Shown piece after piece: positions 1 through 1,600 of a stretch of DNA of 1,636 bases (position 1 is its first letter; each line of letters starts with the position of its first letter). The stretch lies in assembly GCA_000004985.1 (NCBI GenBank), contig GG739362.1; one strand, given 5' to 3'. The notes beneath the pieces were generated by a model. It was not told the origin of the DNA. It was given only the letters and a program-made list of their open reading frames with translations, and made no database searches. The translations under genes were made by a program, and so were the position numbers. This DNA is from Naegleria gruberi (taxonomy: Eukaryota).

Positions 1-1035
1 GACTTGATTCAAGAAATAAAGAATGTTGAATTTATTGACAGAATGCCAAAACCAGATTCAATATTTCTGGTTACTACTAATCAAAAGGATGATGAAGGAA
101 AACCAAGTATAATTTCTGACCTTGCTTTTGGCACACATCCATCCTCTTGGAAAACATTCGTACCACGAGTTGTCAAAGGTTACTCCTTTGGTACTCACAA
201 AACTTTAGAGTGTCGTGGTGTTTCCTATTGTACAACATGTAACAAAGGTGCTGAAGATGGTGAAGTTTACACTAAGAAATTCACCTTTTGTAGGAAGATG
301 GAGCCCATTACAGGCAAAGTGTGTAATACCAAGCTAGTGAAGTTGGGTGAGAAGTGTATGCATAGGGTAAGATGGTACAAAACAGCACCAGACGAAGGTG
401 GAAACATGATGAATCTGGTCATGTTTGAAAAGGCACATGCTCACAATACTGTTATTACAGGTAAATTCACCAAGAAGGCGGAACAACTAATTGAAGAACA
501 TGTGAAGAAGAACCCCAGAGTGAAAGCTTCACAATTAAAGAAAAGACGTTCTACAAATCTAGTTGCGAAAGATTGCTCTGCACTATTGAACAATGATGCG
601 GTAGCATCATTGGTAAGGAAGAAGAAGGATAAGCATTACGGGCAGAACAGGTTCAAGGATATGCCAGACCTTGCTAACGCCCTAACCGAGTCGTACCAAA
701 AAGAGCACAAAGATGATAAAAGAACCGTGCTTGGTACCATTACAAGGGAATTGGGGGTCTCAATTTATTTGAGAAAGTTTGGCAGTGTGAAAACATTTTT
801 GAAATGGTGGAAAGCAAGAATTGATATTCTAATCAATCCAAACGTGCGTGTAACTACTAATAACATCGCAGAATCGAACAATGCGCTGATTAGAATAGTG
901 ATAGAAGATGCTAATTTGTCAATTGAATTCAAAAACAGTTTTGAAGTTGATGTTTTAACCTTCGATTTGTTACTTTCTAAACAAGCGGGGTACTTCTTGG
1001 AGACTCAGCAACAAACAAGCGTTGTTAAACCGTAA
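1..1035 (+). CDS. 5'-partial ORF, probably the C-terminal part of a Mutator-like (MULE)/IS256-superfamily transposase-derived protein. It has a putative FAR1/WRKY-type zinc finger and a catalytic-E signature. The frame is open to the left window edge; the first in-frame ATG is at 43.
   Basis: There is an uninterrupted frame +1 of 345 codons with no stop from nt 1; the track lists it from the TTG at 4. Codon usage is yeast-like. A Cys/His pattern C96-x10-C107-x37-H145-x-H147 (nt 289-444) sits in a 'F.C...GkvC..klv....RWyk....f...HaHN' context that resembles the FAR1/WRKY-GCM1 zinc finger. The motif T-T-N-N-I-A-E-S-N-N-A-L-I-R (nt 853-894) fits the Mutator/IS256 consensus TxNxAESxNxxI[KR] around the catalytic glutamate. 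The ORF ends at TAA 1033-1035. Confidence 0.55.
   Translation, partial: DLIQEIKNVEFIDRMPKPDSIFLVTTNQKDDEGKPSIISDLAFGTHPSSWKTFVPRVVKGYSFGTHKTLECRGVSYCTTCNKGAEDGEVYTKKFTFCRKMEPITGKVCNTKLVKLGEKCMHRVRWYKTAPDEGGNMMNLVMFEKAHAHNTVITGKFTKKAEQLIEEHVKKNPRVKASQLKKRRSTNLVAKDCSALLNNDAVASLVRKKKDKHYGQNRFKDMPDLANALTESYQKEHKDDKRTVLGTITRELGVSIYLRKFGSVKTFLKWWKARIDILINPNVRVTTNNIAESNNALIRIVIEDANLSIEFKNSFEVDVLTFDLLLSKQAGYFLETQQQTSVVKP
289..444 (+). other. Putative FAR1/WRKY-GCM1-type C2H2-like zinc-finger DNA-binding module inside the frame +1 ORF
   Basis: Translation reads YTKKFTFC(96)RKMEPITGKVC(107)NTKLVKLGEKCMHRVRWYK...NLVMFEKAH(145)AH(147)N. It has a C-x10-C spacing followed by HxH, with a conserved-looking Trp/aromatic between the two ligand pairs. 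Confidence 0.35.
853..894 (+). other. Mutator/IS256-superfamily transposase signature around the putative catalytic glutamate (TTNNIAESNNALIR)
   Basis: The sequence act act aat aac atc gca gaa tcg aac aat gcg ctg att aga translates to TTNNIAESNNALIR. It is compared by eye to the TxNxAESxNxxI[KR] / 'TTNxIESxNxxIRR' motifs of MURA-like and IS256-like transposases. Confidence 0.4.
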
Positions 1036-1507
1036 AAAGTGGGCATACAACAATGACGGAGTGCCAAACTTAAACCAGGTGGATGAAGTTGGTGGTGAAA
1101 GTGTGGAAATTAATAATGATGAGGATTATTGTGAAAATAATAATGCTGTGGATGAGGATGAAGTGGATGATGAAGTGGATGATGAAGTAGATGAAGTAGA
1201 TGAAGAAGTGGATAATAATAGTGAGAATGATGATGAAGAGGAGGAAGGTGAGGAAGATGGGGATTATGTTGAAGAAGAGGAGGAAGAAAGAAGAAAGAAG
1301 AAAACAAAAGTTACTAAAAAGAAATGGAAGAATGTAACAAGAAGAAAGCAGGAGAAGAAAAATGAAGAAGAGGAAGGTGAAAGTAAAAATGAGAAGACAA
1401 AAATAAGTCATTTTAGAAGATGGAATGAAGATGTGAAGAGTTTAGGGAGTAAAAGAAAGAGGAATGTAGTAGATTATAAAAAGACTAATGGTGATGATAG
1501 TGAATAA
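1022..1507 (+). CDS. Frame +2 ORF with no ATG at all. It encodes an acidic (DEV)n/poly-Glu tract followed by a Lys/Arg-rich NLS-like tail. It is most likely the downstream, post-frameshift part of the preceding gene (a frameshift at the CCG-TAA-A stop would make effective coding start at 1034).
   Basis: Frame +2 is open from 959 to TGA 1505-1507. The translation contains no Met; the track's 'M' is a TTG. It overlaps the frame +1 ORF by 14 nt as listed, or 77 nt of mutually open frame. Composition is strongly biased: D/E 1151-1290, K/R 1289-1470. An AATAAA overlaps the stop and AT-rich 3' signals follow, which suggests a genuine gene 3' end. Confidence 0.45.
   Translation: MLNRKKWAYNNDGVPNLNQVDEVGGESVEINNDEDYCENNNAVDEDEVDDEVDDEVDEVDEEVDNNSENDDEEEEGEEDGDYVEEEEEERRKKKTKVTKKKWKNVTRRKQEKKNEEEEGESKNEKTKISHFRRWNEDVKSLGSKRKRNVVDYKKTNGDDSE
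1151..1213 (+). repeat. Imperfect in-frame tandem repeat (GAT GAR GTR)n, about 7 units of 9 nt. It encodes DEDEVDDEVDDEVDEVDEEVD.
   Basis: The unit is seen directly: gatgaggat gaagtggat gatgaagtggat gatgaagtagat gaagtagat gaagaagtggat. Confidence 0.65.
1225..1400 (+). repeat. Long polypurine (GAA/GAG/AAG-rich) low-complexity tract on the + strand. It encodes poly-Glu then a Lys/Arg-rich stretch, and includes a (GAA)n-like microsatellite at about 1266-1300.
   Basis: The + strand is almost purely purine across this span. The complementary pyrimidine strand produces the spurious F/L/I/P/H-rich minus-strand ORFs (1070-1411 and 1110-1307). Confidence 0.55.
1289..1330 (+). other. NLS-like basic cluster RRKKKTKVTKKKWK; a second basic patch KRKR lies near 1450-1470
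   Basis: This is the direct translation of frame +2. Clusters of at least 4 K/R in a row are typical of classical monopartite or bipartite nuclear localisation signals. Confidence 0.35.
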
Positions 1508-1600
1508 AGGGAAATATTATTTAATGGTTTCATCAGTTCTTGTTTAATACAACAAGAATAATAAAATGCTACAATTAAAGTATAAAAAATTTGTAAAAAT
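1503..1600 (+). promoter_or_regulatory. Putative yeast-type mRNA 3'-end formation region. AATAAA overlaps the TGA stop, followed by an A/T-rich tract with TATAAAAAA and AATAATAAAA elements.
   Basis: tgAATAAAg lies at 1503-1509, aataataaaa at about 1557-1566 and tataaaaaa at about 1581-1589. These match the efficiency/positioning-element style of budding-yeast 3' UTRs. This is a sequence-based guess only. Confidence 0.3.
1537..1558. other. Perfect 8-bp inverted repeat (ttcttgtt / aacaagaa) with a 6-nt loop (taatac). It is a potential stem-loop in the 3' UTR.
   Basis: Seen directly: 1537-1544 ttcttgtt, loop 1545-1550, and 1551-1558 aacaagaa is the exact reverse complement. Confidence 0.45.

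What the first reader, a model, noticed from the sequence alone, without database searches (positions are those of the whole stretch)
959..1040. Two-frame gene junction: candidate +1 programmed frameshift at CCG-UAA-A, or a pseudogenising indel
The downstream frame +2 ORF (to 1507) has no ATG anywhere, so it cannot start on its own. It overlaps the end of the transposase-like frame +1 ORF. Frame +1 reads naturally (…LLLSKQAGYFLETQQQTSVVKP*) right up to the stop, and frame +2 reads naturally (KKWAYNNDG…) from immediately after it. This places the shift within a few nucleotides of 1030-1036. The local heptamer is CCG UAA A. With peptidyl-tRNA-Pro on a rare CCG codon in the P site and a stop codon in the A site, this is the configuration used by known yeast +1 frameshift sites (Ty3 GCG-AGU-U; antizyme OAZ1 GCG-UGA-C). 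From memory, CCG has been reported among frameshift-prone P-site codons in S. cerevisiae; this should be verified. A +1 shift would yield a fusion of at least 500 aa. It would add an acidic/basic NLS-bearing tail to the transposase-like body. The arrangement is reminiscent of the K. lactis Kat1 domesticated transposase, whose expression needs a programmed frameshift. There are counter-arguments. UAA-A is normally an efficient termination context in yeast. A simple 1-nt indel, real or a sequencing error, in the A5 run at 1034-1038 or the G4/G5 run at 985-990 would explain the same picture.
Basis: partly seen in the sequence, partly recalled or inferred. Interest (0 to 1): 0.8.

Follow-up and report, generated by a model that had tools for sequence, protein, structure and literature searches.

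The report
Frame-broken, core-deleted transposase gene relic
The two-frame junction is real, but it most likely marks a one-base break in a decayed Mutator-like transposon gene that has also lost its catalytic centre, rather than a programmed ribosomal frameshift, so it is ordinary.

Summary
Frame 1 is open from nt 1 to TAA 1033-1035. Frame 2 is open from 959 to 1507 and contains no ATG. CCG-TAA-A sits at 1030-1036. The frame-2 ORF is far longer than chance gives (0 of 5000 shuffles reach it).

Only one relative was found in any collection: a 2-kb metagenome contig, L001, about 29% identical. L001 reads through the equivalent junction in a single frame and has no heptamer there. The two window frames were therefore once one gene.

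L001 also carries about 207 residues that the window lacks. These hold the first two acidic residues and the CxxH motif of a Mutator/IS256-like DDE core. The window keeps only the Cys/His-rich N-terminal domain, the WW...TNNIAES motif and an acidic/basic tail. It cannot encode an active transposase.

L001 has its own frame break, at a different position and in the opposite direction.

Homology cannot place the window's shift at the heptamer. Deleting any single base at 957-1033 restores the frame, and the product expected from a programmed shift aligns worst of the three candidate positions compared directly. UAA-A is a strong stop context, and no RNA structure follows it.

Best reading: a one-base indel, or possibly a sequencing error, in a young, internally deleted transposon relic. 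A programmed +1 frameshift is not excluded; I put it at about 5%.

The parts
1..1035 (+). Frame-1 ORF of 344 codons plus TAA. Its N-terminus is cut by the window edge, with roughly 13 or more residues missing judged from L001. This is the body of a Mutator-like transposase relic.
   Evidence: BLASTP to L001 gives E=2e-12 for the N-terminal domain, and E=5e-5 and 4e-13 for the middle and C-terminal segments.
211..444 (+). Cys/His-rich putative zinc-finger DNA-binding domain (C71, C77, C80, C97, C108, C119, W125, H146, H148).
   Evidence: All of these residues are invariant between the window and P0002/L001. Pfam FAR1 DNA-binding domain gives only E=0.18 on P0002. The fold was not confirmed, because the AF2 model had pLDDT 34.6.
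778..783 (+). In-frame internal deletion junction (F260|G261). About 207 residues present in L001 are missing here (L001 ORF2 residues 74-280, which hold FNID, SVDF and CHFH).
   Evidence: The BLASTP segments end at query 260 / subject 73 and resume at query 262 / subject 281. The MAFFT alignment agrees.
802..900 (+). Retained C-terminal transposase motif KWWKARIDILINPNVRVTTNNIAESNNALIRI. It contains the conserved W and the third acidic residue (E) of the DDE signature.
   Evidence: 38% identity to L001 ORF2 residues 281-351, E=4e-13. The matching part of L001 hits NCBIfam IS256 transposase NF033543 at profile positions 208-318 of 338, E=0.0011. The motif layout fits the MULE description in PMC5225508.
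957..1033 (+). Zone in which the frame break must lie. Both frames are open here (frame 2 from 959), and deleting any one base restores a single ORF.
   Evidence: Single-base deletion scan.
987..990 (+). G4 homopolymer, one viable site for a one-base insertion or a read error. Removing one G gives ...KQAGTSWRLSNKQALLNRKKWAYNNDG, where TSWRL matches L001 TSCRL.
   Evidence: global alignment score 64, against 56 for the frameshift-site product.
1030..1036 (+). CCG TAA A, the heptamer proposed as a +1 frameshift site. It includes the frame-1 stop codon at 1033-1035.
   Evidence: It is absent at the equivalent place in L001. No downstream RNA structure (z = -0.09).
1031..1072 (+). Frame-2 motif RKKWAYNNDGVPNL, homologous to L001 RKRNEYVNDGIPDI, which in L001 is in frame with the transposase body.
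   Evidence: 7 of 14 identical and 11 of 14 positive, E=0.053 alone, and collinear with the upstream matches. Restoring the frame raises the local alignment score from 95 to 112-125.
1037..1507 (+). Frame-2 tail: an acidic stretch (DEVD-type repeats), then basic K/R clusters (RRKKKTKVTKKKWK, SKRKRN), ending at TAA 1505-1507.
   Evidence: The nuclear-localisation function is inferred from the sequence only.

Best explanation
The window holds a nearly complete but disabled copy of a gene from a rare Mutator-like (MULE/IS256-superfamily-like) DNA-transposon lineage. The host is an AT-rich, probably eukaryotic genome.

Two lesions separate the copy from the ancestral gene.
1. An in-frame internal deletion removed about 207 residues. 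These held the first two catalytic acidic residues and the CxxH motif.
2. A one-base gain (equivalently a two-base loss) somewhere in 957-1033 moved the C-terminal YxNDGxP motif and the acidic/basic tail into frame 2.

Ribosomes are expected to stop at TAA 1033-1035. The frame-2 tail is then a recently orphaned remnant, and the CCG-TAA-A heptamer is incidental.

What is shown:
- The homology to L001.
- The missing core.
- The single-frame state of the homologue across this junction.
- The impossibility of localising the shift to the heptamer.

What is inferred:
- That the break is a real mutation rather than a read error.
- That the copy has no function.
- That it is young, because neither frame has yet acquired a stop.
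For: - The only detectable relative among about 15 billion proteins is P0002 on contig L001.
- L001 reads ...NGYTTSCRLNPVDYLEQRRKRRKRNEYVNDGIPDI... in one frame across the region where the window changes frame.
- The window lacks L001 ORF2 residues 74-280, which hold FNID, SVDF and CHFH. It therefore cannot encode a DDE enzyme.
- L001 carries its own single frame break at 793-841. That is a different position and the opposite direction (-1), and the window is single-frame there. Breaks look sporadic in this lineage, not positionally conserved.
- Any one-base deletion at 957-1033 restores the ORF. The frameshift-site product aligns no better than the alternatives and slightly worse.
- UAA is the least leaky stop, and +4 C rather than A weakens termination in yeast (PMC4748822). 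Known stop-dependent sites are GCG/CCG_UGA_C (PMC5009743).
- No structured RNA lies downstream.
- Frameshift- and deletion-disabled copies are the norm for DNA transposons. Examples are Rover/Roamer relics in yeasts (PMC4316626) and Muta elements that need manual frameshift correction (PMC5225508).
- Core-less MULE-like ORFs and pseudogene fragments are already described in Saccharomycetaceae (PMC4629796).
Against: - Apart from the one frame break there is no other disabling lesion. 344 + 157 codons are free of stops, and the tail's open run is far beyond chance. The lesions are therefore very recent, or the break is a sequencing artefact, or the tail is still translated.
- The internal deletion is in frame, which would also suit a domesticated DNA-binding protein.
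- CCG is a documented +1 P-site codon in one yeast lineage.
- A single-frame homologue at 29% identity does not exclude a lineage-specific recoding site. In YFS1, 52 of 81 species have the site and 29 do not (PMC12719033).
- No close paralogue or orthologue and no reads could be examined.
Confidence: 0.62

Rival explanations
1. Sequencing or assembly artefact. The true sequence is single-frame, for example G3 instead of G4 at 987-990. The locus would then encode one continuous core-less protein of about 515 aa.
For: - There is exactly one frame break and no nonsense codon in about 500 codons.
- A homopolymer lies in the permissive zone, and removing one G gives a product that aligns well with L001, TSWRL against TSCRL.
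Against: - G4 is a short homopolymer.
- No read data or platform information is available.
- The alignment score is equally good for deletions at non-homopolymer positions.
Confidence: 0.15
2. A domesticated, core-less DNA-binding protein that now ends at TAA 1033-1035. The frame-1 product (zinc-finger domain plus helical C-terminal remnant) would be functional, and the frame-2 tail a recently detached, decaying remnant.
For: - The deletion of the core is in frame and the 344-codon ORF is intact.
- The Cys/His ligand pattern is fully conserved with L001.
- There is a precedent: T. phaffii TPHA0G02110, an annotated 270-residue MULE-like ORF without the transposase domain (PMC4629796).
Against: - No orthologue was found, so there is no evidence of purifying selection.
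- No identical or similar annotated protein exists in the protein collections.
- The stop-free tail argues that the break is too recent for a settled new gene structure.
Confidence: 0.12
3. Programmed +1 ribosomal frameshift at CCG-UAA-A. Peptidyl-tRNA-Pro sits on CCG in the P site, the ribosome pauses at the stop, and Lys-tRNA reads AAA in the +1 frame. The product is a fusion ...VVKP-KKWAY... carrying the acidic/basic tail. If the unknown host were a euplotid ciliate, where +1 shifts at internal stop codons are routine (my own knowledge, not checked here), this would be the default reading.
For: - Both frames are intact, and the frame-2 ORF has no ATG.
- The tail is homologous to the in-frame C-terminus of L001.
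- CCG_UGA_C is the antizyme +1 site in K. waltii (PMC5009743).
- Eleven P-site codons support +1 shifting in S. cerevisiae (PMC12719033).
- Another yeast domesticated transposase, KAT1, does need a programmed frameshift.
Against: - The heptamer and the two-frame layout are absent in the only homologue.
- Homology does not place the shift at the stop, and that product aligns worst of the three positions compared.
- UAA followed by A is a strong termination context, whereas known sites use UGA-C.
- No downstream structure.
- The protein lacks the catalytic core, so there is no nuclease dosage to control.
- KAT1 is hAT and shifts -1.
- For the euplotid idea: the codon before the stop is CCG rather than the usual AAA, there is no in-frame TGA (which encodes Cys there) among 501 codons, and L001's break needs -1/+2.
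Confidence: 0.05
4. A very short spliceosomal intron joins the frames. Only GT...AG segments of 16 nt (1024-1039) or 19 nt (1021-1039) have the right phase.
For: Removing either segment would join frame 1 to TGG GCA TAC (W-A-Y) in frame 2 (sequence).
Against: - 16-19 nt is below the intron size of yeasts and most eukaryotes.
- The 5' site would be GTT, and there is no branch-point consensus.
- L001 has no gap or intron at this position.
Confidence: 0.01

Closest known systems
Disabled or non-autonomous copies of eukaryotic DNA transposons (Rover/Roamer relics in Saccharomycetaceae, PMC4316626; Aedes Muta elements that need frameshift correction, PMC5225508)
   Same: A transposase ORF interrupted by a small indel and shortened by an internal deletion, while the rest of the reading frame is still recognisable.
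   Different: - The ends of the element (inverted repeats, target duplications) lie outside the window, so mobility cannot be judged.
- The lineage is nearly unsampled, with one distant relative in the public collections.
[quoted passage not shown]
   Same: A Mutator-like origin, loss of the conserved transposase domain, and an AT-rich yeast-like sequence context.
   Different: - No sequence similarity to any annotated protein reached significance in my searches, so kinship with alpha3/TBLA0D02000 is untested.
- Their sequences could not be fetched with these tools.
K. lactis KAT1 (domesticated Roamer/hAT transposase expressed through a programmed -1 frameshift)
   Same: A transposase-derived gene in a yeast, split over two reading frames.
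   Different: - KAT1 is hAT, keeps its catalytic domain and shifts -1 (PMC8673824, PMC4316626).
- The window is Mutator-like, lacks the catalytic core and would need +1.
Yeast antizyme (OAZ1) +1 frameshift sites, GCG_UGA_C in S. cerevisiae and CCG_UGA_C in K. waltii (PMC5009743)
   Same: A CCG P-site codon followed directly by a stop codon, with the downstream ORF in the +1 frame.
   Different: - The stop here is UAA with +4 A (efficient termination) instead of UGA with +4 C.
- There is no conservation and no stimulatory context.
- The host's tRNA-Pro complement is unknown.

Membership tests
Programmed +1 ribosomal frameshift site (yeast Ty/OAZ1/ABP140/EST3/YFS1 type) | A shift-prone P-site codon read by a near-cognate or weakly pairing tRNA | tested here: inconclusive
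   CCG is present at 1030-1032 and is the P-site codon of K. waltii antizyme (PMC5009743). The host and its tRNA set are unknown.
Programmed +1 ribosomal frameshift site (yeast Ty/OAZ1/ABP140/EST3/YFS1 type) | A slowly decoded A site: a rare sense codon or a poorly terminated stop (UGA, +4 C) | tested here: not met
   The A site is UAA with +4 A. UAA is the least leaky stop, and only +4 C weakens termination (PMC4748822).
Programmed +1 ribosomal frameshift site (yeast Ty/OAZ1/ABP140/EST3/YFS1 type) | The two-frame layout and shift heptamer are conserved among homologues | tested here: not met
   The only homologue, L001, is single-frame here and has no heptamer. Caveat: it is only about 29% identical, and no close relatives were found.
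Programmed +1 ribosomal frameshift site (yeast Ty/OAZ1/ABP140/EST3/YFS1 type) | The shift position is pinned to the heptamer by protein conservation in both frames | tested here: not met
   The ORF is restored by any deletion at 957-1033. The local score is flat at 112-125 over 982-1033, and the frameshift-site product scores lowest of the three aligned globally.
Programmed +1 ribosomal frameshift site (yeast Ty/OAZ1/ABP140/EST3/YFS1 type) | Measured frameshifting (reporter, footprints or junction peptide) | not testable with these tools
   This needs an experiment or ribosome-profiling data from the unknown host.
Mutator-like (MULE) / IS256-superfamily transposase | A DDE catalytic domain recognised by a family profile | tested here: not met
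   The window has no Pfam or NCBIfam transposase hit and lacks the stretch that holds the first two acidic residues. Its relative L001 ORF2 hits NCBIfam IS256 NF033543 only weakly (E=0.0011, 18 bits against a cut-off of 150, collinear) and has no Pfam hit. The window is therefore at most a derivative, not a member encoding the enzyme.
Mutator-like (MULE) / IS256-superfamily transposase | A CxxH motif and a conserved W between the second D and the E, with the E in a TNNxxES-like motif | tested here: inconclusive
   L001 ORF2 has D106 (FNID), D182 (SVDF), C220-H223 (CHFH), W288-W289 and E311 (NNIAES), read by eye from motif positions. This fits the description in PMC5225508. The window keeps only WW (aa 269-270) and TNNIAES (aa 286-292).
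Mutator-like (MULE) / IS256-superfamily transposase | [quoted passage not shown] | tested here: inconclusive
   Six Cys and two His are invariant between the window and L001. Pfam FAR1 gives only E=0.18. The AF2 model was unusable, pLDDT 34.6.
Mutator-like (MULE) / IS256-superfamily transposase | Long terminal inverted repeats and 8-10 bp target-site duplications | not testable with these tools
   The window starts inside the ORF and ends 129 nt after the frame-2 stop, so no element ends are available.
KAT1 / Roamer (hAT) domesticated transposase with programmed frameshift | A hAT-family transposase body with a -1 programmed shift | tested here: not met
   No hAT profile hit. The motifs point to Mutator/IS256. 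The window would need +1, whereas KAT1 uses -1 (PMC8673824).

The most novel reading that the evidence does not exclude
The locus encodes a domesticated, core-less Mutator-derived DNA-binding protein. Its acidic/basic, NLS-like tail would be added only when ribosomes shift +1 at CCG-UAA-A. That would be a lineage-specific recoding site using a stop codon in a strong termination context, and a new example of frameshift-controlled expression of a transposon-derived gene besides KAT1.
Probability: 0.05. Interest if true: 0.65.

Novelty: new member of a known kind. Interest (0 to 1): 0.2.

Why it matters
If the ordinary reading is right, the junction needs no new biology. It should be annotated as a disrupted transposon-derived pseudogene, not as a recoding site.

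The modest point of interest lies elsewhere. The gene belongs to a Mutator-like lineage so sparsely sampled that only one distant relative turned up among about 15 billion predicted proteins, and standard Pfam models miss it. Full-length relatives such as L001 could help improve transposase profiles.

If the minority reading were true, it would add a second frameshift-regulated, transposon-derived gene to the yeast repertoire. It would also extend the known +1 sites to a UAA-A context.

Tried and rejected
Searches that found no relatives:
- Word-indexed protein searches with the frame-1 protein, with L001 ORF2 and with their alignment gave no hits. The last was probably swamped by low-complexity acidic words.
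- The exhaustive phmmer search gave one real hit, P0002, and one spurious repetitive hit, P0001.
- A degenerate motif scan (WW...TNNIAES) and peptide-pattern scans of JGI metagenomes, GTDB genomes and IMG/VR returned only chance matches, confirmed by tblastn.
- blastn and tblastn against plasmids and phages found nothing.
- Exact-product look-ups gave no record. I tried the frame-2 ORF with TTG and GTG starts, the cut frame-1 product and a spurious minus-strand ORF. The source contig could not be identified.
- The accession PRJEB11402 appears in no held paper.

Other checks that led nowhere:
- The AF2 model of the frame-1 protein had pLDDT 34.6, so no fold search was run.
- No tRNA was found and no Rfam match reached its gathering score; the only match up to E=1 was RAGATH-9 at 22 bits against a threshold of 75. 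An apparent T-loop-like AATCGAA near the 3' end does not form a tRNA arm.
- The bacterial promoter and terminator scans were uninformative.

Ideas considered and rejected:
- Intron: only 16- or 19-nt GT..AG segments fit the phase.
- Transcriptional slippage in the A5 run: it lies after the stop.
- The CUU-UGA-C string at L001 836-842 looks like the RF2 +1 site, but L001 needs a -1/+2 change, so it is coincidental.
- My initial recollection that 'Rover' is a MULE was wrong; it is hAT.
Full report
**1. The observation**

The window is AT-rich: GC is 35-43% over the body and 25-39% over the tail.
- Frame 1 is open from the first base to TAA 1033-1035.
- Frame 2 is open from 959, after TAA 956-958, to TAA 1505-1507. 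It contains no ATG.
- Frame 3 and the frame-1 continuation are full of stops.
- CCG TAA A is at 1030-1036, an A5 run at 1034-1038 and a G4 run at 987-990.

The frame-2 ORF is not a by-product of purine-rich composition. None of 5000 dinucleotide-preserving shuffles of 1036-1507 or 959-1507 reaches the observed open run; the longest was 98 codons. The tail also shows strong codon periodicity. The described anatomy is real.

**2. What the gene is**

Standard searches found almost nothing.
- Pfam, NCBIfam and PDB sequence searches give no significant hit for the window protein.
- Three word-indexed searches of 5.8 billion protein clusters found nothing.
- An exhaustive phmmer search of 1.84 billion representatives found one genuine relative, P0002, a singleton from an ENA metagenome. 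It is 184 aa and 26% identical over the Cys/His-rich N-terminal domain, with pairwise E=2e-12.

P0002's contig, L001 (2016 nt), continues with a second ORF of 393 codons that is cut by the contig end. That ORF matches the window's frame 1 in two blocks:
- window aa 191-260 with L001 ORF2 5-73 (E=5e-5);
- window aa 262-331 with ORF2 281-351 (E=4e-13).

Between these blocks L001 has about 207 residues that the window lacks entirely.

The extra stretch contains FNID, SVDF and CHFH. Together with WW...TNNIAES downstream, L001 has the layout D-(76)-D-(41 to His)-CxxH...W-(22)-E (positions). This fits the published description of MULE transposases: an N-terminal zinc finger, a DDE domain related to IS256, and a CxxH motif and a W between the second D and the E (PMC5225508).

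Profile support is weak but collinear. NCBIfam IS256 transposase matches with E=0.0011 at profile positions 208-318 of 338. There is no Pfam MULE hit, and the FAR1 DNA-binding domain scores E=0.18.

I therefore call the lineage Mutator/IS256-like. The window copy is a derivative that keeps the DNA-binding domain, the W and the E motif, but has lost the first two catalytic acidic residues and CxxH. It cannot be an active transposase or nuclease.

**3. The junction**

In L001 the sequence after the shared ...NGY reads TTSCRLNPVDYLEQRRKRRKRNEYVNDGIPDI in the same frame as the transposase body.

The window's frame 2 has RKKWAYNNDGVPNL at the collinear place: 7 of 14 identical, 11 of 14 positive, E=0.053 on its own. 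Restoring the frame raises the local alignment score from 95 to 112-125.

The two frames were therefore one gene ancestrally, and the frame-2 tail is (or was) coding.

Where the frame changes cannot be resolved.
- Every single-base deletion at 957-1033 restores a continuous ORF.
- The similarity score is flat from 982 to 1033.
- In global alignments, removing one G of the G4 run gives KQAGTSWRLSN..., with TSWRL against L001 TSCRL, and scores 64.
- A deletion at 1007 scores 69.
- Skipping T1033, which gives the frameshift product VVKPKKWAY, scores 56.

The G-run indel is viable.

**4. Programmed frameshift or lesion?**

For a programmed shift:
- Both frames are intact.
- CCG is a genuine +1 P-site codon in K. 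waltii antizyme, CCG_UGA_C (PMC5009743).
- Eleven P-site codons support +1 shifting in S. cerevisiae (PMC12719033).
- Single-frame homologues in other lineages do not by themselves exclude a lineage-specific site, as YFS1 shows.

Against it:
- The stop is UAA with +4 A. UAA is the least leaky stop, and only +4 C impairs eRF1 (PMC4748822).
- There is no structured RNA downstream (z = -0.09).
- The only homologue has neither the heptamer nor a frame change here.
- The protein has lost its catalytic core, so the KAT1-type rationale of limiting a dangerous nuclease does not apply.
- KAT1 is a hAT gene with a -1 shift (PMC8673824; PMC4316626).
- L001 has its own single frame break at 793-841, in the -1 direction, where the window is single-frame. 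Breaks in this lineage are therefore sporadic.

Disrupted and internally deleted copies are the usual state of DNA transposons. Core-less MULE-like ORFs and pseudogene fragments have been reported in Tetrapisispora and Naumovozyma (PMC4629796).

**5. Other mechanisms**

- An intron would have to be 16 or 19 nt long with a GTT 5' site. I rejected this.
- Transcriptional slippage in the A5 run cannot help, because the stop precedes it.
- If the host were a euplotid ciliate, +1 shifting at internal stops would be routine (my own knowledge, not checked here). Against this, the codon before the stop is CCG rather than AAA, there is no TGA-Cys codon among 501 codons, and L001's break has the wrong direction.

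**6. Caveat that keeps the minority readings alive**

There is exactly one disabling lesion in each of the two known members and no nonsense codon in either. The breaks are thus very recent, or artefacts, or tolerated. With no reads, no close paralogues and an unidentified host, I cannot separate a real mutation from a sequencing error, nor formally exclude recoding.

**7. Verdict**

| Reading | Probability |
|---|---|
| Real indel in a young, internally deleted Mutator-like relic | about 0.62 |
| Sequencing artefact | about 0.15 |
| Truncated domesticated protein with an orphaned tail | about 0.12 |
| Programmed +1 frameshift | about 0.05 |
| Short intron | about 0.01 |

The finding is ordinary. 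The mildly interesting by-product is an almost unsampled Mutator-like lineage that current Pfam models do not recognise.

Noticed in passing
window 778-783 (F260|G261): There is an in-frame internal deletion relative to the only homologue. About 207 residues holding the first two catalytic acidic residues and the CxxH motif are missing, so the window copy is core-less.
   Followed up: yes
L001 793-841: The only homologue has its own frame break, from frame 2 to frame 1 (a -1 type change), in an A-rich stretch (ccaaagaagaaaatctttgacaa). The window is single-frame there. The string CTT TGA C at 836-842 mimics the bacterial RF2 +1 site but has the wrong direction for the required shift.
   Followed up: partly
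window 211-444: This is a Cys/His-rich domain (C71, C77, C80, C97, C108, C119, W125, H146, H148), fully conserved with L001 and resembling WRKY/FAR1-type transposase zinc fingers. Pfam FAR1 gives only E=0.18, and the AF2 model was too poor to test the fold.
   Followed up: partly
window 1148-1213: There are tandem 12-nt (and 9/21/33-nt) repeats, GATGAAGTGGAT, encoding DEVD-type acidic repeats in frame 2. The imperfect copies suggest replication-slippage expansion within the tail.
   Followed up: partly
window 1537-1558: A perfect 8-bp inverted repeat, TTCTTGTT/AACAAGAA, with a 6-nt loop lies 30 nt after the frame-2 stop in the AT-rich 3' region. Nearby are direct repeats AAAATGCTAMAA at 1563 and 1596. 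Their significance is unknown.
   Followed up: no
L001 85-175: Upstream of the L001 ORF is a cluster of direct and inverted copies of AAAAGTCGAG(TC). These are possibly subterminal transposase-binding repeats of the element. The contig is too short to find the matching end.
   Followed up: no
P0001 (protein): The top phmmer hit is a 683-aa protein made of about 10 tandem copies of a 51-aa unit. It matches only a 30-residue stretch of the query, and I judged it a spurious, repeat-inflated score.
   Followed up: partly
window 1-42: Frame 1 runs off the left edge. By alignment to L001, only about 13 or more N-terminal residues are missing. The first in-window ATG is at nt 43-45 (M15), so the true start codon could not be determined.
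   Followed up: no
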